From a phage, in the NCBI GenBank assembly GCA_037431425.1, contig GCA_037431425.1_4129.1: a stretch of 64,000 nt of DNA; one strand, 5' to 3'. Position 1 is the first letter of the stretch. Each line of letters starts with the position of its first letter. Made by a program: the position numbers and the translations under genes. Below the pieces are notes generated by a model that worked only from the letters and a program-made list of their open reading frames with translations, was not told the origin of the DNA and did no database searches. Shown here piece by piece: positions 19,850 through 61,597 of the stretch.

Positions 19850-20040
19850 GTACTGAACTTTATGAAAAAAAGTACTGTACAAATTGCTCAACTGAGTATA
19901 CAATACAAGGTATGTTAATTTGCACAGTATGTAAGTCAAAAGAATCAGCTACATTCATAGTTGATGATAGATTTAGTGATTTAAAACAGTTAAAAGCAAA
20001 CCGCAATCTTCGTATTTTTAGCAATCTAAATAAGGAATAA
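19846..20040 (+). CDS. small zinc-ribbon protein
   Basis: 64 aa; CTNC...CTVC. Confidence 0.5.
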   Translation: MSTELYEKKYCTNCSTEYTIQGMLICTVCKSKESATFIVDDRFSDLKQLKANRNLRIFSNLNKE

Positions 20041-20046
20041 CATTTT

Positions 20047-20475
20047 ATGAATATCGAACAAATCATCAGTAATCATTCTTTCTTCGCTCCAGAAACTGGT
20101 CGTGTAATTGAGAATGTCAAAATCGAAGAACTTATGGTGAATGTTAAATATAAAGAGCCAAATGATGAGATTAGCAGCACTTTTTGTGCACTTCGTGCAC
20201 CATTCCGCAATGAAAAAGCAAAAAAACCAGCATATGTTCTTGCAATTGCTTTAGGGTGTGTTGTTAAACTTGCAGTTGATGAAAATATTATTAATATCAA
20301 AGTCGCCCCTACCAATGACGAAGAAAACATTGATTTGAACTTTGATGGTAATCTCGACGAAGATGTATTTTTTCAACAGTCACTTGTTTATGACTTCCGT
20401 ACCGTGACATATTCACATATTAACTTCGTCAATGAAATGGTTGATATTGTAGCCAAATATGAAGAATCTCTATAA
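20047..20475 (+). CDS. CtFQ-family small protein (C-terminal EExFFQxST-type motif)
   Basis: 142 aa; motif DEDVFFQQSLVYDF. Confidence 0.65.
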   Translation: MNIEQIISNHSFFAPETGRVIENVKIEELMVNVKYKEPNDEISSTFCALRAPFRNEKAKKPAYVLAIALGCVVKLAVDENIINIKVAPTNDEENIDLNFDGNLDEDVFFQQSLVYDFRTVTYSHINFVNEMVDIVAKYEESL

Positions 20476-20532: not shown

Positions 20533-21084
20533 ATGATTGAACAAATTAATATTCTCACACAACAAATTACCGACTTTCTTTCAGATAAAGAAGGTTTCAA
20601 AACTGAAGTGAAAATGCACGGAGTTAGTCTTGATGTAATTTCACCAGATGGAAATGTTACAAATTATGATATGTACGAATTGTTTCTTTACACTTTAGCA
20701 GTACGTAAACTAGGAAGTGACATTGAACTAAACATTAACACTGATAGTGATGGAAATAAAATTTTTGCAATCAATACAAGTGCTAAGTATGATGTTAGTG
20801 CAGAAATTAAAAAAATTAACGATAGCTTTGTTGGTTTCACCCATGATTCAATTCAAGGTGTTTTTGTAGGTAAACAAACTTCATCAAGTCAATGCCCATT
20901 TTGTATTATGACTTTATATAAAAATGGTGATTGGATGCGACAAGACTTGGTATATGCTGAAATGTTGTATGCATTTACACATGGTCTAGAAATTGAATTA
21001 GATGATAGTGCTTTTTGCTTTAAGAAAATCCGAAAACTCACAAATGATATTCAAAAGCAACTTAAAGAATTAAATGATAAATAA
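20533..21084 (+). CDS. hypothetical protein
   Basis: 183 aa; RBS AAGGAAA. Confidence 0.55.
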   Translation: MIEQINILTQQITDFLSDKEGFKTEVKMHGVSLDVISPDGNVTNYDMYELFLYTLAVRKLGSDIELNINTDSDGNKIFAINTSAKYDVSAEIKKINDSFVGFTHDSIQGVFVGKQTSSSQCPFCIMTLYKNGDWMRQDLVYAEMLYAFTHGLEIELDDSAFCFKKIRKLTNDIQKQLKELNDK

Positions 21085-21196
21085 ATGTACCAGAAGTGGT
21101 TAACATATCATGTTATTTTCCTCCCTTACATAATAATGATGCGTTATTAGATTTTCATTTTATTATTTCTTTTTTGTACAAAATCATATTAGTACT

Positions 21197-21219
21197 GCCC
21201 CGTATATCGGGGCATTTTA
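21197..21219 (+). terminator. intrinsic terminator
   Basis: GCCCCG-tatat-CGGGGC followed by ATTTTATT. Confidence 0.6.
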
Positions 21220-21241
21220 TTATCTAAAATATGGTGATTTT

Positions 21242-21634
21242 ATGAAAAACATTGGCTCTTCTATACAAAAAGACCTTTCATTTTACCTTAATAAATTCAG
21301 AAGTATAAATGGTAATAAATTTAATAGTATCTATCAGTTCACACATAAAGAATATATTACTATTGATCCCTTTTCAAAAAAACTGATGTATGTTAATGAT
21401 AATAATTATAGTGTTAAATTATCATTCGATATTGTGTTAGATAAATTAACATTTACGGAATACACTACCAATAAAACTTCATTTTTACACAAGTATAATA
21501 GAAAGGTATATAATCATATTTCTAGTTATTTAAATGAAGATTATCACTTTCAACAATCTACAATAGAAAAAGTATTATTCAGTACTGAAGAATTAAAAGA
21601 ATTATATTATTGGTATGAGAAATTTACATCTTGA
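21242..21634 (+). CDS. CtFQ-family small protein
   Basis: 130 aa; motif EDYHFQQSTIEKV. Confidence 0.6.
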   Translation: MKNIGSSIQKDLSFYLNKFRSINGNKFNSIYQFTHKEYITIDPFSKKLMYVNDNNYSVKLSFDIVLDKLTFTEYTTNKTSFLHKYNRKVYNHISSYLNEDYHFQQSTIEKVLFSTEELKELYYWYEKFTS

Positions 21635-21689
21635 CATTATGGTGGTTTCATCTTACAATACAAGATAATGATGCGTTGAGGACAAATTC

Positions 21690-22100
21690 ATGAGTATAGA
21701 TTTACACAATGAACTACAATATTTTTTTGATTTGGATATATCACGTTTGAACAGACATGTCAATCATATATCCAGAACTATATGGTGGTCTGATGAGGCT
21801 GATGAACCAAGGATTCAGATTTGTGATAATTTGTCAGTTTTAAGATTGTATGTTCTTGATACCGAAATGAATATTATGATAACATACGTACCACCCACAA
21901 ACAAACTTCTAATCAACACACTAAACCCAGATACAGTACTGAAAATTTTTGATTTGGATACGATACAGTCAAGCGAAACACTATTCCAACGTTCATTGGT
22001 TGATGATCTAGGGGGTATTTCTTTTGACGATATATTAAAATTGAAGAAGATGTATAATGAATTATTAGAGATTAAAAATACCGTTCTAATGGGGATTTAA
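21690..22100 (+). CDS. CtFQ-family small protein
   Basis: 136 aa; motif SETLFQRSLVDDL. Confidence 0.6.
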   Translation: MSIDLHNELQYFFDLDISRLNRHVNHISRTIWWSDEADEPRIQICDNLSVLRLYVLDTEMNIMITYVPPTNKLLINTLNPDTVLKIFDLDTIQSSETLFQRSLVDDLGGISFDDILKLKKMYNELLEIKNTVLMGI

Positions 22101-22101
22101 T

Positions 22102-22506
22102 ATGGTAAGTTTATTAGATATTGATAATACTAGTCTGGTTCTGGTGAAAAAAGGATTAATTCCAAATTCTAACAAGATTGATTATGCTGTTATTGAAACA
22201 AATATTGGGAATATCTGGTACGACTCTGAAAGAGACATTGTGTTTAGCTGTGTAGATAGTGATCGTTCTGAGTGCTGTAGGGTTGGGCATGACGGACAAT
22301 TTATTTTCGAATTTCGTTTCTGGAAAGATTCCAGATTTCACCAGGAGCATGTTTCAATTACAAATGTAAATTGTAATGAAGAATCATTCTTCATGGAAAG
22401 TACTATTAATGATTTTGGCTCAGTTACTTTTGAGTACTATAAAAAAGTATATAACTTGTACAGAGAAGTAATTCGAATCATAAGAACCTCTGAGGGTCAA
22501 GATTAA
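22102..22506 (+). CDS. CtFQ-family small protein
   Basis: 134 aa; motif EESFFMESTINDF. Confidence 0.6.
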   Translation: MVSLLDIDNTSLVLVKKGLIPNSNKIDYAVIETNIGNIWYDSERDIVFSCVDSDRSECCRVGHDGQFIFEFRFWKDSRFHQEHVSITNVNCNEESFFMESTINDFGSVTFEYYKKVYNLYREVIRIIRTSEGQD

Positions 22507-22507
22507 T

Positions 22508-22885
22508 ATGACTACTACCATATATAATATTTTAGGTAACTTGAATAAAAACATAGATAATGATTTTGTTATAGTTGAAAACACTAAAAATATAATTCAT
22601 CTACCATTGGGTACACCAGATAGGTTAATTTTTAACATATACGCTAACACACTGACATACATACACGATGGTATGGTTATCGTTGTGCTTGATATTAAAG
22701 AAAATACAATACGATATGCATATGACTTTAACGTTTATTGGTCAAGAACTCATTGTATTGATATTGAGGAAGATGAACTTTTTCAATTATCGTTAATTGA
22801 GAAAAATGTAATAGGAGTTACCGAGATTGGTATTGTTAAAAAAGCTTTGGAATATGCAAATAAAAAAATAAATGGCGAACTATGA
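22508..22885 (+). CDS. CtFQ-family small protein
   Basis: 125 aa; motif EDELFQLSLIEKN. Confidence 0.6.
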   Translation: MTTTIYNILGNLNKNIDNDFVIVENTKNIIHLPLGTPDRLIFNIYANTLTYIHDGMVIVVLDIKENTIRYAYDFNVYWSRTHCIDIEEDELFQLSLIEKNVIGVTEIGIVKKALEYANKKINGEL

Positions 22886-23346
22886 TGAACATTGAGGAAA
22901 TAAAAAATCATTTTGAAATTGCATTGTCTTGTGATTTTGATAGTTGTTATGTTACTGAACCAGAAGATATAATTAGAATTTCCACATCGTTTTCAGAAGA
23001 ATACAATATACTCATTGAGAAATCATATGACAGAACCGAACTCTCATTTTACAATAAGGATTTACGAACAACATCATTTATATTATTATATAACACAACA
23101 TCGGATATAATAGAGATTATAACAAGTAAAACAGGTAAAACAAGTAAAGATGTACATTATGAGACTATACCAAATGTAAGTTATTGTTCAACAGAAGAAG
23201 GATACTTCCAGGAATCACTTATTAAAAATTTATCAGTTAGCTATTCTGATTTAAGCATTATAGTCAATTATGTGGAAAAGTTAAATGATTTCGTTCTATC
23301 GATGTTTGATATCACTGAGCAAAAACCAAAGGAAATCAAATGTTAA
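22882..23346 (+). CDS. CtFQ-family small protein
   Basis: 154 aa; motif EEGYFQESLIKNL. Confidence 0.6.
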   Translation: MMNIEEIKNHFEIALSCDFDSCYVTEPEDIIRISTSFSEEYNILIEKSYDRTELSFYNKDLRTTSFILLYNTTSDIIEIITSKTGKTSKDVHYETIPNVSYCSTEEGYFQESLIKNLSVSYSDLSIIVNYVEKLNDFVLSMFDITEQKPKEIKC

Positions 23347-23795
23347 ATCCTGGACATTTTTTTCATTTACTGGACATTACACCTATACCCGATTTAATCA
23401 GCGAGACTAATCATTATCGTGATATTGGAATTGTATCAATGGAATATGATTCACCTGACTTTAAATGTTACGTAACATACGATCAGGTGGCTTATGAGTC
23501 AGAGCCTGCGATTAAAAAACCATCATATATTTTTGTGTTCATATATAATGATTATAGTGGTGATGTACTGAATGATGTTCATATTGACACATTTGAAATA
23601 TGTGGTAATATTATATCAGATGATTCAGCATCCACATTTGATTTGGAATTAAACAGTACTGAAGAGTCACTTTTTCAGTTGAGTACTATATGTGATACTA
23701 TATTAACTCTAGATGACATTGAGAAATTTAAAGAACAGCTTGACGCAGTTCGTGAGATGTTCTATAATCATTATCCAGAAGTAGAGTTCAATTAA
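23340..23795 (+). CDS. CtFQ-family small protein
   Basis: 151 aa; motif EESLFQLSTICDT; KKPSYIFVF segment shared with 20047 member (KKPAYVLAI). Confidence 0.6.
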   Translation: MLNPGHFFHLLDITPIPDLISETNHYRDIGIVSMEYDSPDFKCYVTYDQVAYESEPAIKKPSYIFVFIYNDYSGDVLNDVHIDTFEICGNIISDDSASTFDLELNSTEESLFQLSTICDTILTLDDIEKFKEQLDAVREMFYNHYPEVEFN

Positions 23796-23809
23796 CTAAA
23801 GGTAATAAG

Positions 23810-24070
23810 ATGACTAAAGTAGTTCGTAAACGCCACATGATGAATATGGATGAATTTCGTACATTTGACAAATATCGTACTATGTTTCGTATGCTGTCAC
23901 AGGGTCGCCCAATCGTCATTGTAACAGAGAATTACATGTCACCTGAGATTATGTTTGGTAATTACGAAAAGGTCTTCATGTTGTACGTGAAGCGTGGATT
24001 GCTTACAATCAAGACATTAGCTGAAGCAACTGATGATGATATGGATGGAGATAATACCTTTACCATGTGA
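23810..24070 (+). CDS. hypothetical protein
   Basis: 86 aa ORF. Confidence 0.5.
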   Translation: MTKVVRKRHMMNMDEFRTFDKYRTMFRMLSQGRPIVIVTENYMSPEIMFGNYEKVFMLYVKRGLLTIKTLAEATDDDMDGDNTFTM

Positions 24071-24148
24071 GGAAATATATGTCTGAAAAACCAAAAGAAC
24101 CTTTAGATCGTGATGATGATTTTTATGACGAACGATATGGAGATGATA

Positions 24149-24400
24149 ATGAGTGAACATAGTGCGGTGCTTAAAAAGATTTTAAAGGAAATTGATGGTG
24201 AGTTTAATGTCACAGAAGAAGAATATCAGCATTGGAAGAAAGATTTCGAACAACTAACCGAGTATGATAAAGTGTTCAATATGATTGGCGTAATTAGCCA
24301 GTACTTACTTGGTGGAGGACGTGCAAGTGCTTCAATTCTGGCATCTGCAATCATCTGTACATCACGATGGTGTGATGAAAAAAGTTTGGAAGATTTCTAA
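24149..24400 (+). CDS. hypothetical protein
   Basis: ATG 24149 after GGAG RBS; track ORF from 24110 is Met-rich and probably over-extended. Confidence 0.45.
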   Translation: MSEHSAVLKKILKEIDGEFNVTEEEYQHWKKDFEQLTEYDKVFNMIGVISQYLLGGGRASASILASAIICTSRWCDEKSLEDF

Positions 24401-24452: not shown

Positions 24453-26333
24453 ATGAAACCTATCCGAGTACTATCTCTTTTTAATGGGATGAGTGTAGGA
24501 TACATGGCATTAAAAGATGCTGGTATCCCTGTTGAAAAATATTATTCATCCGAAATTGACAAATTTGCTATAGCTGAATCCCAAGCTAACTTCCCCGATA
24601 TCATCCAATTGGGTGATGTAACTAGATGGAGAGAATGGGATATTGAATGGGATAAGATAGATCTACTGATGGGTGGTTTTCCATGCTTCCCAGCAGGAAC
24701 TATGATAATGACAAATAAAGGTCATAAAGATATAAAAGATATAAAAATTGGTGATATGGTTCTTACACACACTGGACAGTACCAAAAAGTATTGAGTACT
24801 GGTGTTAAAAAGGCTCCCACTCGTATTATTACAGGTCAAGGTCACCTTCCAATTGAATGTACCGATAATCATCCATTTTGGAGTAGGGAACGTCTAGCCA
24901 ATAAATGGAATAATCAACACCGAAGATATGATTCTGTGTTTTCTGAACCGCAATGGGTAAATGCTATAGATCTTACTAAACAAAGTTATATTTGTAATGT
25001 TAAAAATATTACACATAATACAGTAAGTGATAAAGATGAAAAATATTGGTATTTTGTTGGTCGTTTTATGGGTGATGGATGTGCTAGTGTATCTAATAAC
25101 AAATACAGTATTACTATTGTAGATTCATTAGATAAAGTTGATGAATTGAAAAAATGTTTTGATGATTTTGGATACAAATACACATTAGCTATTAAAGATA
25201 ATCATGTAAGATGTGATATATATAGCAAAAAGCTTTATGATGAATTAATATGTATTGGGCATAAATCACAAAACAAATGTTTACCACCTGAAATATTCAA
25301 TGAAACTATCAATAACAAAGAAGCATTTATTAAAGGATACATGGATGCAGATGGTTGTGAGGATAAACACAATAAAAAATACAAATTTACCACCACAAGT
25401 TATAAAATAGTTCTTGGTATGCAACAGTTAATCTTAGATACTTATCAACGTCATTGTACTATTAGTCAAACTGTTCCAAAAACAAAAAAATATATAAAAA
25501 ATAAGTTGGTTAATCAGCTTCCGTATTGGAATGTTCATTTTAGCTATAATAAAATTAAAAGAGATGATGTAATATATGATGAAATTTATATATGGAATCG
25601 TGGTGTAAAAAGTAATGTACCAACCGGAGAATGGAAAACCGTTTACAATATTGAAGTTGCAGTAGATAACACATATACAGCGAACAATATTGTAGTTCAT
25701 AACTGCCAAGCGTGGTCAGTTGCAGGTAAACAGGGTGGAATAAATGATCCTCGTGGTATGTTATTCCATACAATGGTTGATATTTACCAGCACATAAAAA
25801 GTCTCAATCCAGACTTGAAAGTACTGTTCGAGAATGTTAAAATGAAAGAAGATTTCAAGCAATACATTAATAGTGTTCTTGAGATGACACCAGTACTGAT
25901 AAATTCCCAGCATTATACGCCTCACTTCAGGCAGAGATATTACTGGTACAGTACTGATAAACTTTTTATACCACCTGCATTATCAAATGCACCTAAACTT
26001 CAAGATATTATTGAAGATGGTTGGTACACTGACAGAACCGCTTCGTACTGTATAGATGCTAACTATTTTAAGGGTGGGGATTGTAACCAGTACTTTAATA
26101 AATCAAGAAGACAAATTGTTTTCAAAGAACCTGATATCGATAGGGATTTCCTTCTTGAACATGGTAAGCGAAATGTGGACTATCGTCATTTAACAGTGCA
26201 AGAGTGTTGCATGTTGCAAGGAATTGATGTAAACTACTTCAAAGTTAGTAGTTCAACACAAGCATACAAAATGCTTGGGAATGGATGGACTATGCCAGTT
26301 ATATCACACTTACTACGAGATATATTCTTTTGA
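24453..26333 (+). CDS. DNA (cytosine-5)-methyltransferase precursor containing an intein
   Basis: 626 aa; motif I SLFNGMSVG; motif IV GGFP|CQAWSVAG split by 340-aa insertion; ENV motif (LFENV) in C-extein; extein about 286 aa. Confidence 0.8.
   Translation: MKPIRVLSLFNGMSVGYMALKDAGIPVEKYYSSEIDKFAIAESQANFPDIIQLGDVTRWREWDIEWDKIDLLMGGFPCFPAGTMIMTNKGHKDIKDIKIGDMVLTHTGQYQKVLSTGVKKAPTRIITGQGHLPIECTDNHPFWSRERLANKWNNQHRRYDSVFSEPQWVNAIDLTKQSYICNVKNITHNTVSDKDEKYWYFVGRFMGDGCASVSNNKYSITIVDSLDKVDELKKCFDDFGYKYTLAIKDNHVRCDIYSKKLYDELICIGHKSQNKCLPPEIFNETINNKEAFIKGYMDADGCEDKHNKKYKFTTTSYKIVLGMQQLILDTYQRHCTISQTVPKTKKYIKNKLVNQLPYWNVHFSYNKIKRDDVIYDEIYIWNRGVKSNVPTGEWKTVYNIEVAVDNTYTANNIVVHNCQAWSVAGKQGGINDPRGMLFHTMVDIYQHIKSLNPDLKVLFENVKMKEDFKQYINSVLEMTPVLINSQHYTPHFRQRYYWYSTDKLFIPPALSNAPKLQDIIEDGWYTDRTASYCIDANYFKGGDCNQYFNKSRRQIVFKEPDIDRDFLLEHGKRNVDYRHLTVQECCMLQGIDVNYFKVSSSTQAYKMLGNGWTMPVISHLLRDIFF
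24684..25703 (+). mobile_element. intein with LAGLIDADG homing-endonuclease domain
   Basis: starts CFPAGTMIMT (block A), TDNHPFW (block B TxxH), two LAGLIDADG-like motifs (FVGRFMGDGCAS, FIKGYMDADGCE), ends VVHN followed by Cys +1. Confidence 0.8.
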
Positions 26334-26815
26334 ACATAAACAAACACCAAACTTATATAAAACGTGCAGAAAGTTTCAAACGGCTGGCTGTAAAATCTGA
26401 ATTAGAATTTAATTTGTATTATCCTAATATTGGTGATGAGGTATTTTATTGCTCACATTCAAAGAATGGAACTTTACTTAAATCGGGTAAAGGAACTATT
26501 GTTGATATGACCGCAAATTTCAGAGGTAAACTTAATGTAATGTACAAAGTGCAAGATTCAAGTACTGAGTGTATTCATGAAGTGATGCATAACATACCTG
26601 CATATCCAAAAGATTTTGTTCAGCTAATATCTCGAAGGGAGAAACCTATGTTCTATTGTGGTTACGACAAATTAACCAAACAAATTATTCCTAATACTAT
26701 GGGAAAATTTAAAAGTGATGTAAAATCTGAATTAGAAAAGAAATTTGGTACATCATGGGAAACTGAAAACGAGTTTATCGAAATTCGTTTAATTGAAGTT
26801 ACTATTATTGATTAA
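26285..26815 (+). CDS. hypothetical protein
   Basis: 176 aa ORF; 5' end overlaps methyltransferase gene, true start unclear. Confidence 0.45.
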   Translation: MDYASYITLTTRYILLNINKHQTYIKRAESFKRLAVKSELEFNLYYPNIGDEVFYCSHSKNGTLLKSGKGTIVDMTANFRGKLNVMYKVQDSSTECIHEVMHNIPAYPKDFVQLISRREKPMFYCGYDKLTKQIIPNTMGKFKSDVKSELEKKFGTSWETENEFIEIRLIEVTIID

Positions 26816-26821
26816 TTATAA

Positions 26822-26846
26822 ATCCACGCAATGCGTGGATTTTTTC
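26822..26846 (+). terminator. intrinsic terminator
   Basis: ATCCACG-caatg-CGTGGAT followed by TTTTTC. Confidence 0.7.
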
Positions 26847-26858
26847 ATAGGTGTATAT

Positions 26859-27374
26859 ATGTCAATTCATTATGTTAAAATTATTAACAATATTCTTGAT
26901 TCTTGGGAAGATGTCATTATTGGCAAAAAGAAGCCTTTTCCAGTTCATGCACTAACTGGAAGACTACAATTCAGAATGTCAAACAAAACTGAAACGTTTA
27001 ATAATCATGATATTTGTATTACATTAAAAACACCTGTTAGTATTGTAATTAAAAAAAATAAAGATGATGAATTGTCATTATCTATTGGTCGTGATAAAAT
27101 TATTTTAAGTAATTTGTCTGAAGAAGAATTCTTTCAAAGAAGTACTATCATCGACATGAAAGATTTCACATATGAATCATTAGTAGAACTCAATACACGC
27201 TTTGATGATATTCAGGAACGATTGCGACCAATCCTTCGTAGAGAAGAAGAAGCCTGGATTGAAAGTATGAATAAGATGCAAGAAATGTTAAAAGAAAATA
27301 TTAACAATCTGGGTAAAGCCACAATGGAAATTGGTAAAACTTTAAAACTCAACTTTTCAAAGGATCGTAAATGA
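26859..27374 (+). CDS. CtFQ-family small protein
   Basis: motif EEEFFQRSTIIDM; ATG 26859 chosen because track start 26793 overlaps the terminator. Confidence 0.6.
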   Translation: MSIHYVKIINNILDSWEDVIIGKKKPFPVHALTGRLQFRMSNKTETFNNHDICITLKTPVSIVIKKNKDDELSLSIGRDKIILSNLSEEEFFQRSTIIDMKDFTYESLVELNTRFDDIQERLRPILRREEEAWIESMNKMQEMLKENINNLGKATMEIGKTLKLNFSKDRK

Positions 27375-27823
27375 AAATCGATGAACTGATTTATATTTTA
27401 GGTAACTTGCACAAAATATTGTTACATCGTAACGAGATGAATAAACTAGGATATAATATAACTAATATAAATGAAACATCATTTAAATATAATTCAATCA
27501 CTGGTGTAAATTATAATATTGTGTATTGTCATGAAACTGACCCAGACTGCTATCAACTTACGTTATACTTTTATCCAACAAACCCTGCCATTGTTCAAGA
27601 CATATCATCAATATCACTTGACCCAGATGGTGAAATGAGTATAGAATATAGCTATGATTCTAAAAAAGAATGTTACGTTGAAGATATGAAAAATATGTTT
27701 AACGATGCATATGTGTTCCAGCTAAGTACTGTACATGATGTTGGAAGTACTAATGGGCAATTTTGGAATACATGCTATTATCATATGATTGGAATTTGTA
27801 AATTACTAAAAGGCGATGATTAA
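27371..27823 (+). CDS. CtFQ-family small protein
   Basis: 150 aa; motif NDAYVFQLSTVHDV. Confidence 0.55.
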   Translation: MKIDELIYILGNLHKILLHRNEMNKLGYNITNINETSFKYNSITGVNYNIVYCHETDPDCYQLTLYFYPTNPAIVQDISSISLDPDGEMSIEYSYDSKKECYVEDMKNMFNDAYVFQLSTVHDVGSTNGQFWNTCYYHMIGICKLLKGDD

Positions 27824-28206
27824 TGAAATACAGCATTGAAGTACATTACACTACTGGTGATACTGAAAATCAATATAACATAGTTAAGACCGTTGATATT
27901 CAATGGGATACTAAAGAGGAAGCAGTTGCTGCTTTACAGTGCTTAAAAGAGCATTGGGTGTTTTATATGAAGCAAGATAATTGCTATACAAAAGAACACG
28001 AAACTATCGTTAAAAATGCTAAACAAAAAGAGTGGTTTGACCCAATTTCACCAGAATATTCATTTTTGGTTAAAGTTGGAGGCGTGACAGTTCCCTTACG
28101 AACACCGTGGAACGGCTACTTTGAAACTCTTCATAATGCACGAGTTGTCGCAGTTGACAATCCTGAACAAATCGATTTTGATTCATTGGACTGGAAAAAA
28201 TTATGA
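27823..28206 (+). CDS. hypothetical protein
   Basis: 127 aa ORF. Confidence 0.55.
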   Translation: MKYSIEVHYTTGDTENQYNIVKTVDIQWDTKEEAVAALQCLKEHWVFYMKQDNCYTKEHETIVKNAKQKEWFDPISPEYSFLVKVGGVTVPLRTPWNGYFETLHNARVVAVDNPEQIDFDSLDWKKL

Positions 28207-28646
28207 CAGTACTGCACAGATTGAAGAAGGTTAAGCATCCAGTTGTATATGAGGACTGGAAACGACAAAAGTTACTGGGTGATTTTTATTACCCAAAATC
28301 TAAAGTTCTTGCGAATTCAAGATGTACATATATCAAACATAACGATAAAGATACAGTATTTGTTGAAATGGGGTTCAATCCATCAAATACAATGTTCAGT
28401 ACTAACCAAACATTTTACAAATTTCATATCAAAAAAGATGTATTTTCTATTAAAATTATAAAACATTTAGTTGAAGATCTGGTATACAGTGAAGAAAGAG
28501 TTCCTTTATCATTAGTGGATATTCCTTATAATAATTTAGAGGAAATGTACTTCCAACAGTTGACAGTACAAGAAAACTTTGGTATGATAGGACTTCAAGA
28601 GTTAGAGATGATTAAGCAAATTCGTGATATCTACTTTAAGGAGTAA
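28203..28646 (+). CDS. CtFQ-family small protein
   Basis: 147 aa; motif LEEMYFQQLTVQEN. Confidence 0.55.
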   Translation: MTVLHRLKKVKHPVVYEDWKRQKLLGDFYYPKSKVLANSRCTYIKHNDKDTVFVEMGFNPSNTMFSTNQTFYKFHIKKDVFSIKIIKHLVEDLVYSEERVPLSLVDIPYNNLEEMYFQQLTVQENFGMIGLQELEMIKQIRDIYFKE

Positions 28647-28648
28647 CT

Positions 28649-28792
28649 ATGCCAGTACGTAACAGTACTTCACGCTTTACGCTTCAACAGAAAGCAGATC
28701 TTTTGAATATGGCAAATAAAGATTCTAATTATTACTATCTAGTACTCGGTGGTTCAGTTGAAAAGATTGACCTACGTGAGTGTGTGAAATAA
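28649..28792 (+). CDS. small hypothetical protein (47 aa)
   Basis: not in track; ATG 3 nt after upstream stop. Confidence 0.35.
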   Translation: MPVRNSTSRFTLQQKADLLNMANKDSNYYYLVLGGSVEKIDLRECVK

Positions 28793-28805
28793 CAAAGGGG
28801 ATAAA

Positions 28806-28976
28806 ATGAGCCTACGTGAATCATGGGAACAATTTAAAGAAGAGATTGGTTATCGTGGTGTTAAGATTGAACAAATCAATCGAACCGAAAGTATCAAAGC
28901 AAGTTCTAATGGTACTACATATGATCGTTATGATGAAAAGTATGGTTTACATTCTAAATCAAAGGATACTGAGTAA
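28806..28976 (+). CDS. small hypothetical protein (56 aa)
   Basis: not in track; RBS AAGGGGA. Confidence 0.4.
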   Translation: MSLRESWEQFKEEIGYRGVKIEQINRTESIKASSNGTTYDRYDEKYGLHSKSKDTE

Positions 28977-29119
28977 TGGTGTATATTAATATTTTTACTG
29001 GTATTATGCGTAAGTTTGTTAATGGTATTGGATATGTATCCAATGATAATGGTAGTACATGGGTAAAAAATAATACGCCCGAATCTTTAGTGAAAAATCT
29101 TCCGTATTATAAAGCTTGA
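28976..29119 (+). CDS. small hypothetical protein (47 aa)
   Basis: not in track; start overlaps upstream stop (TAATG). Confidence 0.35.
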   Translation: MVYINIFTGIMRKFVNGIGYVSNDNGSTWVKNNTPESLVKNLPYYKA

Positions 29120-29144
29120 CCCCTGAAAATGGAGTATGTATAAT
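29116..29144 (+). promoter_or_regulatory. sigma70-type promoter (TTGACC-17-TATAAT)
   Basis: near-consensus hexamers upstream of 29177 gene. Confidence 0.65.
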
Positions 29145-29176
29145 ACTCCTATATTAATTAAATGAGGATATACGAA

Positions 29177-29749
29177 ATGGCTGGTGTTGATAAAATTTGT
29201 GAATTCAGTGGTGATTATGAAGGTTACGAAATGTACAAGTCCAAGCGTAATCACATTCAAGTACTATCAAAATATCGAAAACATTTTCGTGGACATAAAG
29301 CAACATTGTATGTTTTTGAGAATGGATATTCTGAAGTTTTCACAAGTGGTGGGTACAGTACAGCTAACATGGCACATATCAACCCAAACCCAACTGAAGA
29401 TGATTGGAATAGTGGTAATGCTTTTCGTATTTCAATTTTGAATAAAATGAATCGATACGACCGTTATTGTACATTCTTTGAAAATATTTCAGAATACAAG
29501 CAAGCATTAAAGAAATATAATCAACGCTTACTAATGAATTATGATTACATTCTTCATGTACCTACTGTTCCAGGTCAGGTTAATGGTCTGTACACGAACA
29601 GTACACACGATTTAACTGCGGTGAAGCGTCGTCTTAAACGTATGTTGGGTCATGGAAAACTAACTATCAAGATTATGCGTAATGAATCTATGTATAACTT
29701 TTTAAATGTTCTTCATTACACATTAAAGGATAAAAATGGAAGCGATTAA
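29177..29749 (+). CDS. hypothetical protein
   Basis: ATG 29177 after GAGGA RBS; track start 29162. Confidence 0.55.
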   Translation: MAGVDKICEFSGDYEGYEMYKSKRNHIQVLSKYRKHFRGHKATLYVFENGYSEVFTSGGYSTANMAHINPNPTEDDWNSGNAFRISILNKMNRYDRYCTFFENISEYKQALKKYNQRLLMNYDYILHVPTVPGQVNGLYTNSTHDLTAVKRRLKRMLGHGKLTIKIMRNESMYNFLNVLHYTLKDKNGSD

Positions 29750-29933: not shown

Positions 29934-29935
29934 TT

Positions 29936-33931: not shown

Positions 33932-34420
33932 ATGCCGATTCGTGGTGTACCAGACCCAATACGTGAAATTCTTAAGCACATTCGCATTGAAACACTAGAA
34001 GTTAACATGCGTCGTTATAATATATATTACTTTAAAACTTCCGAAATGAGTTCTGTACAGATTGTCATTGGTACATCTATTAAGATTACTCGTGTACTTG
34101 ATGGCAGTACTGACTTTGTTGAATACAACGTACTTACTAATAAAGTAACACATACATATAAATGGAGTGGATATAAAACTATTAAATATGAGTTTGACTT
34201 AGCTAGAACCGAAGAAGAACGATTCATGTTGAGTACTATAAATCCAGAAAACTATCCTGACATTGATACATTTTTGCTAATTTTAAAATTGTATAATAAA
34301 GCAAATGAGAAAGCTAAAGAGTACAATAGAATCATGTATGAACGCAAAAAAGAACGTGTACAAAAAAGTTATGATCTGTATGATAACCCATACGTGAAAT
34401 ATAGTAAGGGAAAGAAATGA
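33932..34420 (+). CDS. CtFQ-family small protein
   Basis: motif EEERFMLSTINPEN; ATG 33932 just after upstream stop. Confidence 0.55.
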   Translation: MPIRGVPDPIREILKHIRIETLEVNMRRYNIYYFKTSEMSSVQIVIGTSIKITRVLDGSTDFVEYNVLTNKVTHTYKWSGYKTIKYEFDLARTEEERFMLSTINPENYPDIDTFLLILKLYNKANEKAKEYNRIMYERKKERVQKSYDLYDNPYVKYSKGKK

Positions 34421-34821
34421 ATAATGAAGTTCAAATTATCATTACTCCACCTATACAAAGTCTGGATGTAACCATTAGTGATTTTTTGGAAAAATACTAT
34501 GAATGGTTTAATGAAGATTCAGTCATTTATAACCATTCATTACCTGATGGTTTCGTTGAGCTTATTGAATTAAATGCCAAATCACTATACTTCTGTGTTG
34601 AATACAATGATTATATGACAGATGAAGCATATCGTTTTCGTTGTACATTGTATCCTAACCATTTTTCCATTGGTTATAAAGACTATCAGTACTGCACCAC
34701 AAACTATAGTGTAGAGGAAGAATTTCAGTACAATTTACTTTATCCTGATTTAGATTATACGATTGCAGTACTGTTGACTAAAATCATGGATTTTTATAAA
34801 GATAAATATAATGCAGCCTAA
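34417..34821 (+). CDS. CtFQ-family small protein
   Basis: 134 aa; motif EEEFQYNLLYPDL. Confidence 0.5.
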   Translation: MNNEVQIIITPPIQSLDVTISDFLEKYYEWFNEDSVIYNHSLPDGFVELIELNAKSLYFCVEYNDYMTDEAYRFRCTLYPNHFSIGYKDYQYCTTNYSVEEEFQYNLLYPDLDYTIAVLLTKIMDFYKDKYNAA

Positions 34822-36027: not shown

Positions 36028-36143
<116 letters not shown>

Positions 36144-36150
36144 CAAAAGA

Positions 36151-36224: not shown

Positions 36225-36248
36225 CCTACTTCAATTAAAGGTTAAACC

Positions 36249-36574: not shown

Positions 36575-36743
<169 letters not shown>

Positions 36744-36747: not shown

Positions 36748-37188
<441 letters not shown>

Positions 37189-37925: not shown

Positions 37926-37927
37926 AT

Positions 37928-38295
<368 letters not shown>

Positions 38296-38305
<10 letters not shown>

Positions 38306-39908: not shown

Positions 39909-40325
39909 ATGACATACAATATTGTTAAAATGGTGAACTATGTATTAAAAAACAACTCATGGTCACTGCATGATGTACAATTAGAAGATATTGGTGAAGT
40001 TAGAGTATTTTGCTATGATGACGATTTGAACGAAACCACTGATTTGAGTAAATGTTTTAATATTTTTCTTGGTTATGAAATCAATAATCATTTTTATTCA
40101 TTTGATGTGTATTTTGAACGAGTTAAAATCAGAATTGCTAATGTAAATAGTGATTATTATGACACTAGAATTGAATTGAATTTTGATGATATAGATACTG
40201 AAGAAAAATTCTTTCAGTACTGTCTCGTAAACGATCTAAATGGATTGACATTTGAGGACATTAAAGCTATACTTAAAGTTCAAAGATTGATACCAGAAGA
40301 GGTTCTAAATCCCTTTAATGACTAG
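39909..40325 (+). CDS. CtFQ-family small protein
   Basis: 138 aa; motif EEKFFQYCLVNDL. Confidence 0.6.
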   Translation: MTYNIVKMVNYVLKNNSWSLHDVQLEDIGEVRVFCYDDDLNETTDLSKCFNIFLGYEINNHFYSFDVYFERVKIRIANVNSDYYDTRIELNFDDIDTEEKFFQYCLVNDLNGLTFEDIKAILKVQRLIPEEVLNPFND

Positions 40326-40683
40326 TTTAATAACTCGTATAATGCAAGATGTTCGTAAGAATCTTTATACTGGTAATTTTGATGATCCTAACATAAAAAT
40401 ATTATGTTATGATGGATTCACACTGGTACATCCATCAGAATCTAATAATATATACATAGCATATACTTCTCCTAATCTTTTGTATCAATTTGATTTATAT
40501 AGTACATTAGCGAAAGTAATCTTAGATGTTTCAAAGGAGCCAATTTTTATAGCAGTACGTGATATTGAGTACACAGAAGAATCATTATTCCAGTACTCAA
40601 CGATAAATGACATTGGTGGGTTGACATTGGATGAGGTTAATGCTATAATAGCAGTCTCACGTTTGATTGATACTCACAATTAG
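40318..40683 (+). CDS. CtFQ-family small protein
   Basis: 121 aa; motif EESLFQYSTINDI. Confidence 0.6.
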   Translation: MTSLITRIMQDVRKNLYTGNFDDPNIKILCYDGFTLVHPSESNNIYIAYTSPNLLYQFDLYSTLAKVILDVSKEPIFIAVRDIEYTEESLFQYSTINDIGGLTLDEVNAIIAVSRLIDTHN

Positions 40684-41315: not shown

Positions 41316-41333
41316 CTTATGAGGATTAATATA

Positions 41334-41750
41334 ATGAACAGAGAAGTTATTAGTTTAATGGATGAGTATATAAACCAAACGCATCGTTTGATATTTTTAA
41401 ATGAATTCGAGTCCAGAACAACGTATCATTCTGGAGAATATGAGATAACGACTGGATCATTTCTGAACGGATATATGGAGTTTTTTGAACAAAGCGATAA
41501 TGTTTTTATTTCCATATCTGAAAAACATGGTGATGGTTGTGTTATTGATGTATGGCCCAATAAAGTAGAGATTGATACTTCACACAAAATTGTAATTGAT
41601 GTAGACGAATCATTATATGATTTAACTGAAGATATGTATATGCAGCTAAATTTTGTATATGACCTAACTAATATAAGTTATTGTAATTTAAGTAAATTAT
41701 TTTATATTTGTGGTGTATTACATAATAATACACAACAAAATAAAGGATAA
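41334..41750 (+). CDS. CtFQ-family small protein (divergent)
   Basis: motif EDMYMQLNFVYDL; ATG 41334 after GAGGA RBS. Confidence 0.5.
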   Translation: MNREVISLMDEYINQTHRLIFLNEFESRTTYHSGEYEITTGSFLNGYMEFFEQSDNVFISISEKHGDGCVIDVWPNKVEIDTSHKIVIDVDESLYDLTEDMYMQLNFVYDLTNISYCNLSKLFYICGVLHNNTQQNKG

Positions 41751-41758: not shown

Positions 41759-42163
41759 ATGTTGAAAATTCCACAACAGGCATTATCTATACTAATTGAA
41801 AATGGTGTAATATTTTCTGAAGGATGTAGTTCATTCTATACATGTGATGTGGACCAGTACACATTTGAATACCGTTCATTTAAAAATACATTGAGTGTTT
41901 CGTGTGAAGCTTCTGACAACATTGTACTTGTTGTTTCTTTCTATGGTGTACCAAAATTCTTCATTGATATATATTATGATTCTTTTAAGATACAAACATA
42001 CGACCATTTTCTTGGTGAAGTGCTCTTGCAAATGCCAATTGAACATGTTACTATAAATGAAGATATGTTCTTTCAGCTATCTACGGTATATGATATGTGT
42101 GGTTTGACATTTGACAACATTAATGGTATTTTTGAAATTGCCAGAACCCTACGAGGAAGATGA
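41759..42163 (+). CDS. CtFQ-family small protein
   Basis: 134 aa; motif NEDMFFQLSTVYDM. Confidence 0.6.
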   Translation: MLKIPQQALSILIENGVIFSEGCSSFYTCDVDQYTFEYRSFKNTLSVSCEASDNIVLVVSFYGVPKFFIDIYYDSFKIQTYDHFLGEVLLQMPIEHVTINEDMFFQLSTVYDMCGLTFDNINGIFEIARTLRGR

Positions 42164-42164: not shown

Positions 42165-42572
42165 ATGGTCAAAATTTTAAGTGACAATACAGTTGATATT
42201 GTTATTGATGTACTTGAAAACAGTAATACATTTGAGAAGAAACACAGTACTGTATACTTCGGTAAAGATTGTTGGCTGAACTATACATCTGATAGTTCAT
42301 TTATAATTCATGTTGAAAAGGGTGATATTGGATTAACGATACATGCTTCCTATAATAAAACAATCACTGTTATTGCCAACAAGCCAAGTTCTTCTGATTT
42401 CTGGGATATTATTGATGATTGTGATCATTTCATGTCAACATTCTATAAAACAGAAGAAGAACATTTCATGGATAGTACTGTTCGAGAATTACAAATTCCA
42501 TTTAAATTAATGAAAGCGGCAAGGGATTTTATTTCAAAATACAAAAAAACAGGAGTATGTGATGCAATTTAA
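42165..42572 (+). CDS. CtFQ-family small protein
   Basis: motif EEEHFMDSTVREL; ATG 42165 directly after upstream stop. Confidence 0.55.
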   Translation: MVKILSDNTVDIVIDVLENSNTFEKKHSTVYFGKDCWLNYTSDSSFIIHVEKGDIGLTIHASYNKTITVIANKPSSSDFWDIIDDCDHFMSTFYKTEEEHFMDSTVRELQIPFKLMKAARDFISKYKKTGVCDAI

Positions 42573-55726: not shown

Positions 55727-55924
55727 ATGTTTACTTTATATCTCGCAGTGGTTCTTACTAATGGTGAAATCACTCGTACTATTGGTGAAGGTGTATATAA
55801 AACGCCTGAGCAATGTTACTCTGCTACACATTGGCCTCGTGATAGTGATGATACTCGTACCGAATTTAAATGCATGAAAGTAAAAGGTGATTTTGTTAAC
55901 CTTAAAGTTATTGAGGATAAATGA
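55727..55924 (+). CDS. hypothetical protein
   Basis: 65 aa. Confidence 0.5.
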   Translation: MFTLYLAVVLTNGEITRTIGEGVYKTPEQCYSATHWPRDSDDTRTEFKCMKVKGDFVNLKVIEDK

Positions 55925-56439
55925 TGAATATTAATGAGTTGTTAATATTATTGTTTAATCGTGGAAATGATGTAAGACGTACTATCTATCAAGACAAAAT
56001 ACACATTGAAACTGATAAATGTTATGGTAAAACAACTCATGAGATTTTAAAACCGAACGGTAAACGATATGCCGACGTATGTTTTCATGAAAGAAGTGAT
56101 GGTAGTGACATAATCAGTACTGATATTGTGTTTTATGCTAGATCATCGGCAGAATCGTATGAAATCGAACTTGTATATTGCCCTAGTTCAAAAGCACACA
56201 ATAAGCGTCAGATATTGTATGATGTTTATTCACCACCAGGTGTAGCTGAACATTTTGTTATCGATTACAGTACTGAAGAAAGTGTGTTTCAACAGAGTTT
56301 GATTCATAACTTCCAGTTGAACGATCCAAATGTACCAAAGATGTTCAAACTACTCGATGTAATTGATGTTGATTTTGAATTTGTTATGTGCATCAGAACT
56401 TCTTTAATCGATGAATTTATGGAATTACTTAATATATGA
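55921..56439 (+). CDS. CtFQ-family small protein
   Basis: 172 aa; motif EESVFQQSLIHNF. Confidence 0.6.
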   Translation: MMNINELLILLFNRGNDVRRTIYQDKIHIETDKCYGKTTHEILKPNGKRYADVCFHERSDGSDIISTDIVFYARSSAESYEIELVYCPSSKAHNKRQILYDVYSPPGVAEHFVIDYSTEESVFQQSLIHNFQLNDPNVPKMFKLLDVIDVDFEFVMCIRTSLIDEFMELLNI

Positions 56440-61024: not shown

Positions 61025-61597
61025 ATGAATCGTAAAGGTCGTTTTAAGGTATCAAAGAAGAACAAAAGTTCTAGATTTAAGCCTATAGTTTTAACCGTTA
61101 AAGCCAAAGCGGAATTAACTGCACTTAGTAAAAAGATCATTTCATCTAAGATTAAAGTATCATACGTAAATTCGGTAAAATATCGAAAGGTTAAACCACA
61201 AGACCTACTCATTTCACTTATATTTGAACGTAATGATTTTGAGATATCAGTGGATGATTATAGAGCCTATAATGCTGGTTTCATTAATGTTACTTGTACT
61301 ACAGAACTAACTGAATTAGAACATTTGTCATGTATAGTAAATCTCGATAAAGGTGTAGTGAAATACCACTTTGTACATTTTACTAATATTAATGATGGAA
61401 AGGGTGTACAATCCAGAACTATAGTACCTACATGTGATGTGACTAAATTATCAAAGCTCAATGACGAAGAATATTTTCAAGAAAGTACTGTAACTGAATA
61501 TATAGATGAAATTATAGCAACTTACAAAGAATGTATATGGGTTTTAAATGCAATGAAGCCTAAATTATGTTTGATGAATATTGTACGTGATTTATGA
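61025..61597 (+). CDS. CtFQ-family small protein
   Basis: 190 aa; motif DEEYFQESTVTEY; RBS GAGGAAA. Confidence 0.6.
   Translation: MNRKGRFKVSKKNKSSRFKPIVLTVKAKAELTALSKKIISSKIKVSYVNSVKYRKVKPQDLLISLIFERNDFEISVDDYRAYNAGFINVTCTTELTELEHLSCIVNLDKGVVKYHFVHFTNINDGKGVQSRTIVPTCDVTKLSKLNDEEYFQESTVTEYIDEIIATYKECIWVLNAMKPKLCLMNIVRDL

What the first reader, a model, noticed from the sequence alone, without database searches (positions are those of the whole stretch)
21242..23795. Tandem arrays of CtFQ genes with overlapping stop/start codons
Six consecutive family members (21242-23795) are arranged head-to-tail, mostly with ATGA/TAATG overlaps; similar arrays occur at 26859-27823, 33932-34821, 39909-40683 and 41334-42572. 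This indicates repeated local duplication and translational coupling, a signature of rapidly evolving arms-race gene families.
Basis: seen in the sequence. Interest (0 to 1): 0.6.

Follow-up and report, generated by a model that had tools for sequence, protein, structure and literature searches.

The report
Giant phage's 60-copy small-protein family
The six head-to-tail genes belong to an uncharacterised family of about 50-65 small, mostly acidic proteins that fills roughly 9% of RaK2/121Q-type giant phage genomes; the copies are old and mostly kept in the same order between phage genera, and they are probably early host-takeover proteins, though that function is inferred only.

Summary
The window is Escherichia phage ph0011 (Asteriusvirus, about 348 kb). 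The six ORFs at 21242-23795 are real and homologous. They share a motif, [TSND]-E-E-x-[YFL]-F-Q-x-S-[TL]-[VIL]-x-[DEN], about 35-50 residues from the C-terminus.

A family profile finds 21 members in the window, all on the + strand. It finds 51-66 in a complete relative (TH47), about 8.7% of that genome. It also finds 125 clusters among 1.84 billion proteins. A DNA version of the motif hits almost only 345-378 kb phage contigs (RaK2, GAP32, 121Q).

The "mostly ATGA/TAATG" claim is wrong for the focal array, where only 1 of 5 junctions is ATGA. Neighbours there are no more alike than distant copies. RaK2 carries collinear orthologues, so the duplications are ancient.

Copy number still varies (4, 5 or 6). 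Omega is higher than in neighbouring genes (0.25 vs 0.11) but always below 0.4. Some blocks look exchanged between lineages.

32 near-consensus sigma-70 promoters lie on the + strand against 1 on the other, which suggests an early region. The function, diversified early binders of host proteins, is inferred.

The parts
20047..20475 (+). Family member (142 aa). It sits upstream of the focal array, separated from it by one non-family gene (20533-21084).
   Evidence: Leave-one-out E 1.3e-10. Motif DEDVFFQQSLV. RaK2 orthologue at 45% identity, E 7e-47. 20533-21084 is not a member (hhalign).
21196..21214 (+). Terminator-like GC hairpin followed by a T-run, just upstream of the first array gene.
21242..21634 (+). 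Array gene 1 (130 aa, basic, pI 8.9). No orthologue in Turkey5.
   Evidence: (E 2e-6).
21631..21659 (+). Sigma-70-type promoter-like site, TTGACA-N17-TACAAT, in the 55-nt gap between array genes 1 and 2.
21690..22100 (+). Array gene 2 (136 aa).
   Evidence: E 7.7e-8. RaK2 orthologue E 3e-15.
22102..22506 (+). Array gene 3 (134 aa).
   Evidence: E 5.4e-9. RaK2 orthologue E 5.5e-10.
22508..22885 (+). Array gene 4 (125 aa).
   Evidence: E 1.6e-7.
22882..23346 (+). Array gene 5 (154 aa). It is the most divergent allele of the focal array: 46% aa identity to 121Q, dS 1.38.
   Evidence: RaK2 orthologue E 4.7e-8.
23340..23795 (+). Array gene 6 (151 aa, net charge -23). This is the protein of AF2 model 1.
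26859..27374 (+). Family member. The longest ORF starts at TTG 26793; ATG 26859 matches the 121Q gp93 annotation. It has a C-terminal extension.
27371..27823 (+). Family member (150 aa).
   Evidence: External profile E 1.1e-11. Leave-one-out is weak, E 0.009.
28203..28646 (+). Family member (147 aa), separated from 27371-27823 by a non-family gene.
   Evidence: RaK2 orthologue E 5.8e-11.
33932..34420 (+). Family member (longest ORF starts at TTG 33917). It has a basic C-terminal tail.
34417..34821 (+). Marginal or degenerate member (motif VEEEFQYNLL).
   Evidence: hmmsearch E 0.0045. hhalign E 0.0055, probability 6.6%.
36807..37160 (+). Family member (117 aa), with a promoter-like site 32 nt upstream.
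37928..38305 (+). Family member, weaker than most.
   Evidence: External profile E 2.7e-8. Leave-one-out E 0.028.
39909..40325 (+). Family member. With 40318-40683 it forms the most similar neighbouring pair (34% identity, E 2e-13).
40318..40683 (+). Family member (121 aa).
41319..41750 (+). Only 40% identical to 121Q but 91% to TH47.
41759..42163 (+). Family member (134 aa). This is the protein of the confident AF2 model 2.
42165..42572 (+). Family member. The longest ORF starts at TTG 42111, but the likely start is ATG 42165, which follows an SD-like GAGGAAG.
55921..56439 (+). Isolated family member (172 aa).
61025..61597 (+). Isolated family member with a basic N-terminal extension; weaker than most.
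   Evidence: External profile E 4.6e-9. Leave-one-out E 0.003.

Best explanation
The six genes belong to a large, ancient multigene family specific to RaK2/121Q-type jumbo phages, with about 50-65 copies per genome. The products are small (median about 148 aa), soluble and mostly acidic.

They share one fold: an N-terminal helix, a six-stranded antiparallel sheet and two C-terminal helices. The near-invariant motif forms the first C-terminal helix. It begins with a helix N-cap residue, and its variable positions lie on a single helical face. I therefore infer that the motif is mainly the buried, fold-defining core. The sheet and loops are the parts that vary.

The genes lie in a region packed with co-oriented consensus sigma-70 promoters. 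I infer from this that host RNA polymerase transcribes them early.

The most likely role (inference only) is a repertoire of diversified intracellular binders or inhibitors of host proteins, serving host takeover or anti-defence.

The arrays arose by tandem duplication before Asteriusvirus and Alcyoneusvirus split. They have since changed by slow gain and loss of copies, relaxed purifying selection, and exchange of divergent allele blocks between lineages.
For: Family is real and large:
- Leave-one-out profiles support the members.
- There are 21 hits in the window, 20 in the syntenic 50 kb of 121Q, 18 in Erwinia phage Hallingskeid and 19 in Turkey5. All lie on the coding strand.
- The examined 185 kb of ph0011 holds 51-63 members.
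- The complete TH47 genome holds 51-66 members, covering 8.7% of the genome.
- 125 clusters match among 1.84 billion representative proteins, nearly all carrying the motif.
- 16 of 17 DNA-motif matches in IMG/VR lie in 345-378 kb contigs, including RaK2, GAP32 and 121Q.

Structure:
- AF2 model 2 has pLDDT 86.4 and pTM 0.79. Its topology is a1-b6-a2-a3, with the motif forming a2.
- Model 1 agrees in its confident C-terminal half.
- In the motif logo, T/S/N/D (the residues favoured at helix N-caps) occupy position -5 in 89% of sequences, followed by E (84%) and E (78%).
- In orthologue pairs the C-terminal module is more conserved than the N-terminal part: 11 of 13 pairs against 121Q and 10 of 12 against Turkey5.

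Protein properties:
- Median pI is 4.7-4.8. Only one member has a strongly hydrophobic 19-residue window.
- No member is annotated as a structural protein in 121Q.

Early region:
- 32 promoter matches of at least 11/12 lie on the + strand against 1 on the - strand. Most are 30-100 nt upstream of an ORF.
- The homologous region of the related phage CBB was proposed to be the early, host-takeover region (PMC5259590).
- An ADP-ribosyltransferase, protein kinases and a DksA-like gene lie in or near the dense family block.

Evolution.
Against: There is no direct evidence of function.
- No member matches Pfam, NCBIfam, a functionally annotated PHROG, or any PDB sequence.
- Expression timing is inferred from promoter consensus only.
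- Several members are well conserved as far as RaK2 (20047 is 45% identical). That would suit conserved core roles better than arms-race binders.
- Omega is below 0.4 for every member. Against TH47 the family diverges no faster than its neighbours.
Confidence: 0.5

Rival explanations
1. Adaptor model. The conserved C-terminal two-helix module is a docking site for one shared partner, such as the phage ClpP-like protease, a kinase or ADP-ribosyltransferase, or host RNA polymerase. The variable N-terminal sheet selects different targets. This would resemble F-box or BTB substrate adaptors.
For: About 8 of 10 positions in the motif helix are conserved, which is more than packing alone usually needs. 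The C-terminal module is more conserved than the N-terminal part in orthologue pairs. The genome encodes a ClpP-like subunit, another protease, kinases and an ADP-ribosyltransferase, some of them beside the dense family block.
Against: The variable motif positions (-2, +2, +6) fall on one helical face and the conserved ones on the others. This fits a helix sandwiched between the sheet and a3. The residue at -5 belongs to the N-cap set, which points to a structural role. No partner is known. No co-variation or co-occurrence test was done.
Confidence: 0.15
2. One reading: an actively expanding and contracting set of recent tandem duplicates under positive selection, with translational coupling through ATGA/TAATG overlaps.
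For: Copy number differs among relatives: 4, 5 or 6 in the focal array, with extra copies in Turkey5. Two neighbouring pairs are each other's closest relatives. Omega is higher than in neighbouring genes. Junctions are tight in 8 of 10 cases.
Against: Paralogue identity is only 20-35%. In the focal array, neighbours are no closer than distant copies. Collinear orthologues exist in RaK2. The order is 1:1 in 121Q and TH47. No gene has omega above 0.4. Only 3 of 10 junctions are ATGA and none is TAATG. SD-like sequences precede 5 of the 6 genes.
Confidence: 0.08
3. p32/Mam33-like acidic oligomers that act as nucleic-acid mimics or general chaperone-like binders of basic proteins, rather than as specific inhibitors.
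Confidence: 0.1
4. The motif (E-E-x-Y/F-F-Q-x-S) is a shared processing site or degron, since it resembles the ExxYxQ|S site of TEV-type proteases. The family members would then be substrates.
For: A superficial sequence resemblance (my own knowledge of the TEV site). The genome encodes proteases.
Against: The motif lies in a helix predicted with pLDDT about 94-96, packed within the fold. The would-be P1' position is highly variable. No 3C-like protease is annotated in the parts of the genome I read.
Confidence: 0.03
5. The copies are functionless or selfish DNA that is merely tolerated in a giant genome.
For: The family takes up about 9% of the genome. No function is known and some copies can be lost.
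Against: All ORFs are intact. Omega is 0.08-0.39, which indicates purifying selection. Positional orthologues persist between phage genera. The motif is conserved across 283 sequences.
Confidence: 0.05

Closest known systems
Lineage-specific expansions in jumbo phages, e.g. the ~35-copy zinc-ribbon family of Bacillus phage G (Iyer et al. 2021, PMC7824862). [quoted passage not shown]
   Same: One small domain is massively expanded inside a giant phage genome. The copies are clustered, co-oriented and of unknown function.
   Different: This is a different fold and motif, with a higher copy number (51-66). It is shared across several genera rather than confined to one phage. In the papers I could search, the family itself and its motif are not described.
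Multigene families of large eukaryotic DNA viruses (ASFV MGF110/360/505; poxvirus ankyrin, Bcl-2-like and BTB families). This comparison rests on my own knowledge.
   Same: Tandem arrays of diverged paralogues occupy variable genome regions. Copy number varies between isolates, a conserved scaffold carries variable surfaces, and the families have roles in host range and immune evasion.
   Different: The folds and hosts are unrelated. A role in host range is not shown for this phage family.
Mam33 / p32 / gC1qBP fold (Pfam MAM33)
   Different: The similarity is not robust between the two models. There is no sequence or profile match, the sheet has six strands rather than seven, and the oligomeric state is unknown.
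PHROG families of unknown function (phrog_23322, 33313, 24941, 24510, 36084, 30841, 30548, 17453, 28118 and others)
   Same: Each window paralogue is the full-length match of its own PHROG. Weak cross-hits link these PHROGs through the C-terminal module.
   Different: PHROGs splits the family into many unannotated groups and does not recognise them as one superfamily.
T4-type early gene regions (clusters of small host-takeover genes behind strong sigma-70 early promoters). This comparison rests on my own knowledge and on the CBB paper.
   Same: Dense co-oriented consensus sigma-70 promoters, small tightly packed ORFs, and ADP-ribosyltransferase and kinase genes nearby.
   Different: T4 early regions are not dominated by a single paralogous family.

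Membership tests
Tandemly duplicated multigene family | Members are demonstrably homologous | tested here: met
   Leave-one-out profile E is at most 1e-4 for 17 of 21 members. An outside-built profile hits only coding-strand ORFs.
Tandemly duplicated multigene family | Head-to-tail arrangement on the same strand, with members adjacent | tested here: met
   Six consecutive members lie at 21242-23795. There are further runs of 2-3 in the window and runs of more than 10 in the ph0011 block at 30.7-57.6 kb.
Tandemly duplicated multigene family | Neighbouring copies are each other's closest relatives (the signature of recent local duplication) | tested here: not met
   This holds only for 39909/40318 and 41319/41759. 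In the focal array, five of the six genes have their best partner in another array; only 22102 pairs with a neighbour, 21690.
Tandemly duplicated multigene family | Copy number varies among relatives | tested here: met
   The focal array has 6 copies in ph0011, 121Q and TH47, 5 in Turkey5 and 4 in RaK2. Turkey5 has three extra copies at L003 42579-43918.
Arms-race (positively selected) gene family | dN/dS above 1, or site-level positive selection | tested here: not met
   Gene-wide NG86 omega is 0.08-0.39 against 121Q. Site models were not run because too few lineages were in hand.
Arms-race (positively selected) gene family | Faster protein divergence than neighbouring genes | tested here: inconclusive
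   Yes against 121Q (75% vs 92% identity, p = 2e-4) and Turkey5 (34% vs 71%, p = 4e-6). No against TH47 (86.8% vs 86.4%, p = 0.70). Divergence is block-wise and comes with raised dS.
Translationally coupled operon | Stop and start codons overlap (ATGA or TAATG) | tested here: not met
   Only 1 of 5 junctions in the focal array and 3 of 10 overall are ATGA. None is TAATG.
Translationally coupled operon | Downstream translation depends on upstream translation | not testable with these tools
   This needs reporter fusions or ribosome profiling. SD-like sequences precede 5 of the 6 genes.
Mam33/p32/gC1qBP family | Match to the MAM33 sequence profile | tested here: not met
   No Pfam hit for any of 111 members.
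Mam33/p32/gC1qBP family | Significant and reproducible structural similarity | tested here: not met
Mam33/p32/gC1qBP family | Homotrimeric doughnut assembly | not testable with these tools
   No multimer prediction or experiment was available.
Known anti-defence or host-takeover protein families | Profile match to a characterised family | tested here: not met
   Pfam, NCBIfam and PDB sequences gave nothing. PHROG matches are all 'unknown function'. BFVD hits are all uncharacterised proteins.
Early (host sigma-70 transcribed) phage genes | Consensus sigma-70 promoters upstream and co-oriented with the genes | tested here: met
   32 sites of at least 11/12 on the + strand against 1 on the - strand, including 21631-21659 inside the focal array.
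Early (host sigma-70 transcribed) phage genes | Transcripts appear in the first minutes of infection | not testable with these tools
   I found no transcriptome for an Asteriusvirus in the searchable literature.

The most novel reading that the evidence does not exclude
The 50-65 paralogues are a hard-wired repertoire of binders. One stable scaffold (motif helix plus sheet) displays many different surfaces, each neutralising a different host defence or housekeeping protein. Lineages swap alleles as cassettes. This would be the phage counterpart of the immune-evasion multigene families of poxviruses and ASFV. It would also be a rich, unexplored source of new anti-defence proteins and a determinant of jumbo-phage host range.
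Probability: 0.25. Interest if true: 0.8.

Novelty: new member of a known kind. Interest (0 to 1): 0.55.

Why it matters
About one gene in ten of the RaK2/121Q-type jumbo phages belongs to a single family that no database names. Several of these phages are being developed for therapy against E. coli, Klebsiella, Salmonella and Cronobacter.

Recognising the many separate 'hypothetical protein' groups (separate PHROGs) as one superfamily simplifies annotation of these genomes. The superfamily has a sharp diagnostic motif and a confident fold model. It also defines a clade marker.

It gives a concrete, testable set of candidates for host takeover or anti-defence. The copy number exceeds the ~35-copy zinc-ribbon expansion of phage G, which was called unprecedented (PMC7824862). 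If the binder-repertoire idea is right, the family is a natural library of inhibitors built on one small scaffold.

Tried and rejected
- Recent duplication. All-vs-all BLASTP and Smith-Waterman matrices show only 20-35% identity, and the adjacency signal comes from two pairs.
- Known families. Pfam on 10 and then 111 members, NCBIfam, PHROGs and a profile search of PDB sequences gave no informative match.
- The search for related loci with the whole-family alignment failed because no stretch was conserved enough. My first degenerate DNA pattern had too few fixed bases. A longer pattern worked.
- The word-indexed protein search added little beyond close Asteriusvirus relatives.
- Interspersed genes. 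I tested whether 20533, 27823 and 42559 are cryptic members. hhalign says they are not.
- The shared 13-mer ATAATGATGCGTT in the two intergenic gaps flanking array gene 1. There are only two exact copies in the window, and looser matches are barely above chance, so I did not pursue it.
- TEV-like cleavage site. Rejected because the motif lies in a confidently predicted helix and the would-be P1' position is variable.
- Literature. Searches and reading of papers on RaK2, CBB, 121Q, UE-S1, fEgEco12 and Sharanji, plus the jumbo-phage comparative paper, found only generic remarks on paralogues.
Full report
**Identity of the window.** The region 21000-24400 is 99.6% identical to Escherichia phage ph0011 (OP557969, 348,217 bp, genus Asteriusvirus). 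It is about 85% identical to some 30 other 121Q/PBECO4-type jumbo phages of E. coli and Salmonella. The window corresponds to about 262,850-326,849 of that record. G+C content is about 0.30-0.36 and nearly all long ORFs are on the + strand.

**Check of the observation.** The six ORFs exist exactly as described: 21242-21634, 21690-22100, 22102-22506, 22508-22885, 22882-23346 and 23340-23795, encoding 125-154 aa.

All six carry an F-Q/M-x-S-[TL]-[IV] core preceded by acidic residues, about 35-50 residues from the C-terminus. Pairwise BLASTP similarity is weak, 23-43% identity and often confined to the C-terminal 30-50 residues. Profiles nevertheless establish homology:
- An iterated HMM converges on 21 + strand ORFs in the window.
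- In leave-one-out tests, 17 of the 21 score E at most 1e-4 against a profile of the others. The six focal genes score 2e-6 to 5e-9.
- A profile built mostly from sequences outside the window hits 21 of 263 ORFs (both strands), all on the + strand.

The genes interspersed among members (20533-21084, 27823-28206, 42559-43023) are not members.

The statement about junctions is inaccurate. In the focal array the junctions are:
- a 55-nt gap containing TTGACA-N17-TACAAT;
- two TAAtATG junctions with a 1-nt spacer;
- one ATGA overlap;
- one 7-nt overlap.

Over all ten family-family junctions, three are ATGA and none is TAATG. Eight of ten are tight, against 43% of other junctions (Fisher p = 0.04). 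SD-like sequences precede five of the six genes. Coupling is therefore possible, but the sequence neither requires it nor demonstrates it.

**How big the family is.** The profile of the window paralogues, searched against 1.84 billion representative proteins, finds 125 clusters at E at most 1e-3. All are 60-206 aa, and 117 of the 130 proteins then on file match a strict motif pattern.

A motif-anchored logo from 283 sequences gives [TSND](89%)-E(84%)-E(78%)-x-[YFL]-F-Q(92%)-x-S(90%)-[TL]-[VIL]-x-[DEN](89%). The F, Q/M and S-[TL]-[VIL] positions were part of the anchor and their frequencies are inflated. The N-cap, E-E and D positions were not forced.

A degenerate DNA version of the motif matches 17 places in IMG/VR. 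Sixteen of them lie in contigs of 345-378 kb. These include RaK2 (345,809 bp; identity confirmed) and 121Q (348,532 bp; its fragment L018 is 100% identical to the 121Q locus, and L020 maps to KM507819). A 358,663-bp contig has the length I recall for GAP32; I did not confirm its identity.

The dense blocks lie outside the window:
- 121Q has 17 hits in 9.7 kb at 165-175 kb.
- ph0011 has 32 more members at 30.7-50 kb and 8 at 50-71 kb of its record. That gives 51 (outside profile) to 63 (iterated profile) members in the 185 kb examined, all on the + strand.
- The complete genome of TH47 (352,450 bp) was fetched whole. It has 51-66 members, all on one strand and none on the other (1281 ORFs on both strands searched). 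They occupy 30.7 kb, or 8.7% of the genome, mainly in two blocks.

Erwinia phage Hallingskeid has 18 members in a syntenic 40 kb, bounded by a TelA-like gene, a DNA methyltransferase and tRNAs.

**What the proteins look like.**
- Sequence databases. No member matches Pfam (10 and then 111 members tested), NCBIfam or any PDB sequence. PHROGs places each paralogue in its own 'unknown function' group, with weak cross-hits through the C-terminal module.
- Physical properties. The proteins are soluble and mostly acidic. In ph0011 the median pI is 4.8 and the median length 148 aa. Fifty of 62 are acidic, nine are basic, and only one has a strongly hydrophobic 19-residue window. None is marked as a structural protein in the 121Q record.
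- Predicted fold. AF2 on 23340-23795 gave a moderate model (pLDDT 68.8), confident only in the C-terminal half. AF2 on 41759-42163 gave a confident model (pLDDT 86.4, pTM 0.79). Its topology is helix 6-14, six antiparallel strands (26-93), helix 101-110 (which is the motif EDMFFQLSTV) and helix 118-132.
- Role of the motif. The residue set at position -5 (T/S/N/D) is the set favoured at helix N-caps (established knowledge). It is followed by E-E at the first helical turn. The variable motif positions (-2, +2, +6) fall on one helical face. From this I infer that the motif is mostly the buried central helix of the fold.
- Where orthologues vary. The C-terminal module is more conserved than the N-terminal sheet in 11 of 13 pairs against 121Q and 10 of 12 against Turkey5.

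**Evolution.** The Smith-Waterman matrix shows that adjacent members are more alike than random pairs (permutation p = 0.003). This is due only to 39909/40318 and 41319/41759. In the focal array, five of the six genes have their best partner in a different array.

The order is 1:1 between ph0011, 121Q and TH47. More tellingly, RaK2, a Klebsiella phage that I recall is classified in the genus Alcyoneusvirus, carries reciprocal-best orthologues of 20047, 21690, 22102, 22882, 27371 and 28203. They lie in the same order and flank the same methyltransferase gene. Their E-values run from 7e-47 to 1e-4, whereas no RaK2 paralogue scores above about 28 bits against them. The duplications that built the array therefore predate the split of these phage lineages.

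Copy number is not fixed. The focal array has 4 members in RaK2, 5 in Turkey5 (no 21242 orthologue) and 6 in ph0011, 121Q and TH47. Turkey5 lacks 26793- and 40318-type copies and has three extra copies after the 41-42 kb array.

Rates of change:
- Against 121Q, family members are 75% identical (median) versus 92% for other genes (p = 2e-4).
- Against Turkey5, the figures are 34% versus 71% (p = 4e-6).
- NG86 estimates against 121Q give dN 0.149 vs 0.051 and omega 0.25 vs 0.11 (p = 6e-5), with similar dS. No member exceeds omega 0.39.
- Against TH47, the family is no more diverged than its neighbours (86.8% vs 86.4%, p = 0.70).

The divergence from 121Q is block-wise. Genes 22508-23795 and 41319-42572 are 82-93% identical to TH47 but only 40-69% identical to 121Q. 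Their flanking genes are 83-97% identical to both. The most divergent members also have raised dS (1.35-1.46, against a median of 0.58). This pattern fits exchange of divergent allele blocks between lineages, plus relaxed constraint. It fits less well with steady positive selection.

**Expression context.** In the 64-kb window, 32 sigma-70-type sites match at least 11 of 12 consensus positions on the + strand, against one on the - strand. Twelve are perfect matches. Most lie 30-100 nt upstream of an ORF start. One of them (21631-21659) sits in the only sizeable gap of the focal array, and a hairpin terminator (21196-21214) precedes gene 1.

The equivalent region of the related phage CBB was proposed to be the early host-takeover region on the same kind of evidence (PMC5259590). 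Genes for a putative ADP-ribosyltransferase, protein kinases, a DksA-like protein and an acetyltransferase lie in or beside the dense family block. Early transcription by host RNA polymerase is thus a reasonable inference, but it has not been shown.

**Most likely mechanism.**
- Shown: an ancient, very large family of small, acidic, soluble proteins with one fold, specific to one clade of phages.
- Inferred with fair support: early expression, a structural role for the motif, and variability concentrated in the sheet and loops.
- Inferred by analogy: each copy binds a different host (or phage) protein, and together they form a repertoire for host takeover or anti-defence.

I put about 0.5 on this overall reading. 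The main rival is an adaptor model in which the conserved helices dock onto one shared partner (0.15).

**Comparison with what is known.** The phenomenon is a known kind. Lineage-specific expansions occur in jumbo phages: phage G has about 35 zinc-ribbon copies (PMC7824862), RaK2 was said to have 'nearly 10%' paralogues (PMC3622015), and CBB was reported to have 22 paralogous ORFs. It also resembles the multigene families of poxviruses and ASFV (my own knowledge).

This particular family, its motif, its fold and its size are not described in any paper I could search. No family database holds it. I therefore rate it a new member of a known kind.

**Verdict.** The junction detail is wrong. The interpretation as a young, rapidly duplicating arms-race family is only partly supported. 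Interest is moderate (0.55). A 50-65-copy unnamed family making up about 9% of a therapeutic-phage genome is notable and easy to test experimentally, but its function remains inferred.

Noticed in passing
window 24453-26333: The DNA cytosine methyltransferase gene is interrupted by an intein. The 626-aa product carries Hint_2 and a weak LAGLIDADG_3 domain between two DNA_methylase halves. The 121Q and Turkey5 orthologues are intein-free 861-bp genes.
   Followed up: partly
window, whole length: Near-consensus sigma-70 promoters show extreme strand asymmetry: 32 sites of at least 11/12 on the + strand against 1 on the - strand. Twelve are perfect TTGACA-N16-18-TATAAT matches.
   Followed up: partly
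window 21133-21145 and 21665-21677: An exact 13-mer, ATAATGATGCGTT, occurs in both intergenic regions flanking array gene 1. In one of them it lies just after the promoter's -10 element. There are only two exact copies in the window. It may be a remnant of a duplicated promoter or leader.
   Followed up: partly
window 36057-39892 and 36248-36593: A cluster of six tRNA genes (Ser-tga, Arg-tct, Ser-gct, Met, Asn, Thr) is interleaved with family members. Beside it is a 161-bp tandem repeat (2.1 copies, 81% identity), which corresponds to the tandem ~54-aa ORFs gp125-127 of 121Q.
   Followed up: no
L025 (ph0011 record) about 24757-31258: About 30 consecutive 65-115-aa ORFs, most overlapping by 4 nt, lie just upstream of the dense family block. 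They may be a second expanded family of even smaller proteins.
   Followed up: no
L026 5359-5772 (ph0011 record 55359-55772): A putative ADP-ribosyltransferase gene is embedded among family members in the dense block. Protein kinase genes lie at record 19863-20447 and 327047-327670.
   Followed up: no
L001 43195-43614 (121Q gp150) versus window about 43023-43028: 121Q has an extra 420-bp gene between the orthologues of window ORFs 42559-43023 and 43028-43390. ph0011 lacks it, and it is not a family member.
   Followed up: no
window 21096-21241 / L001 21145-21297: 121Q annotates a 50-aa ORF (gp82) in the 157-nt gap upstream of array gene 1. In the window that gap holds a terminator-like hairpin and only a GTG-started 43-aa ORF.
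   Followed up: no
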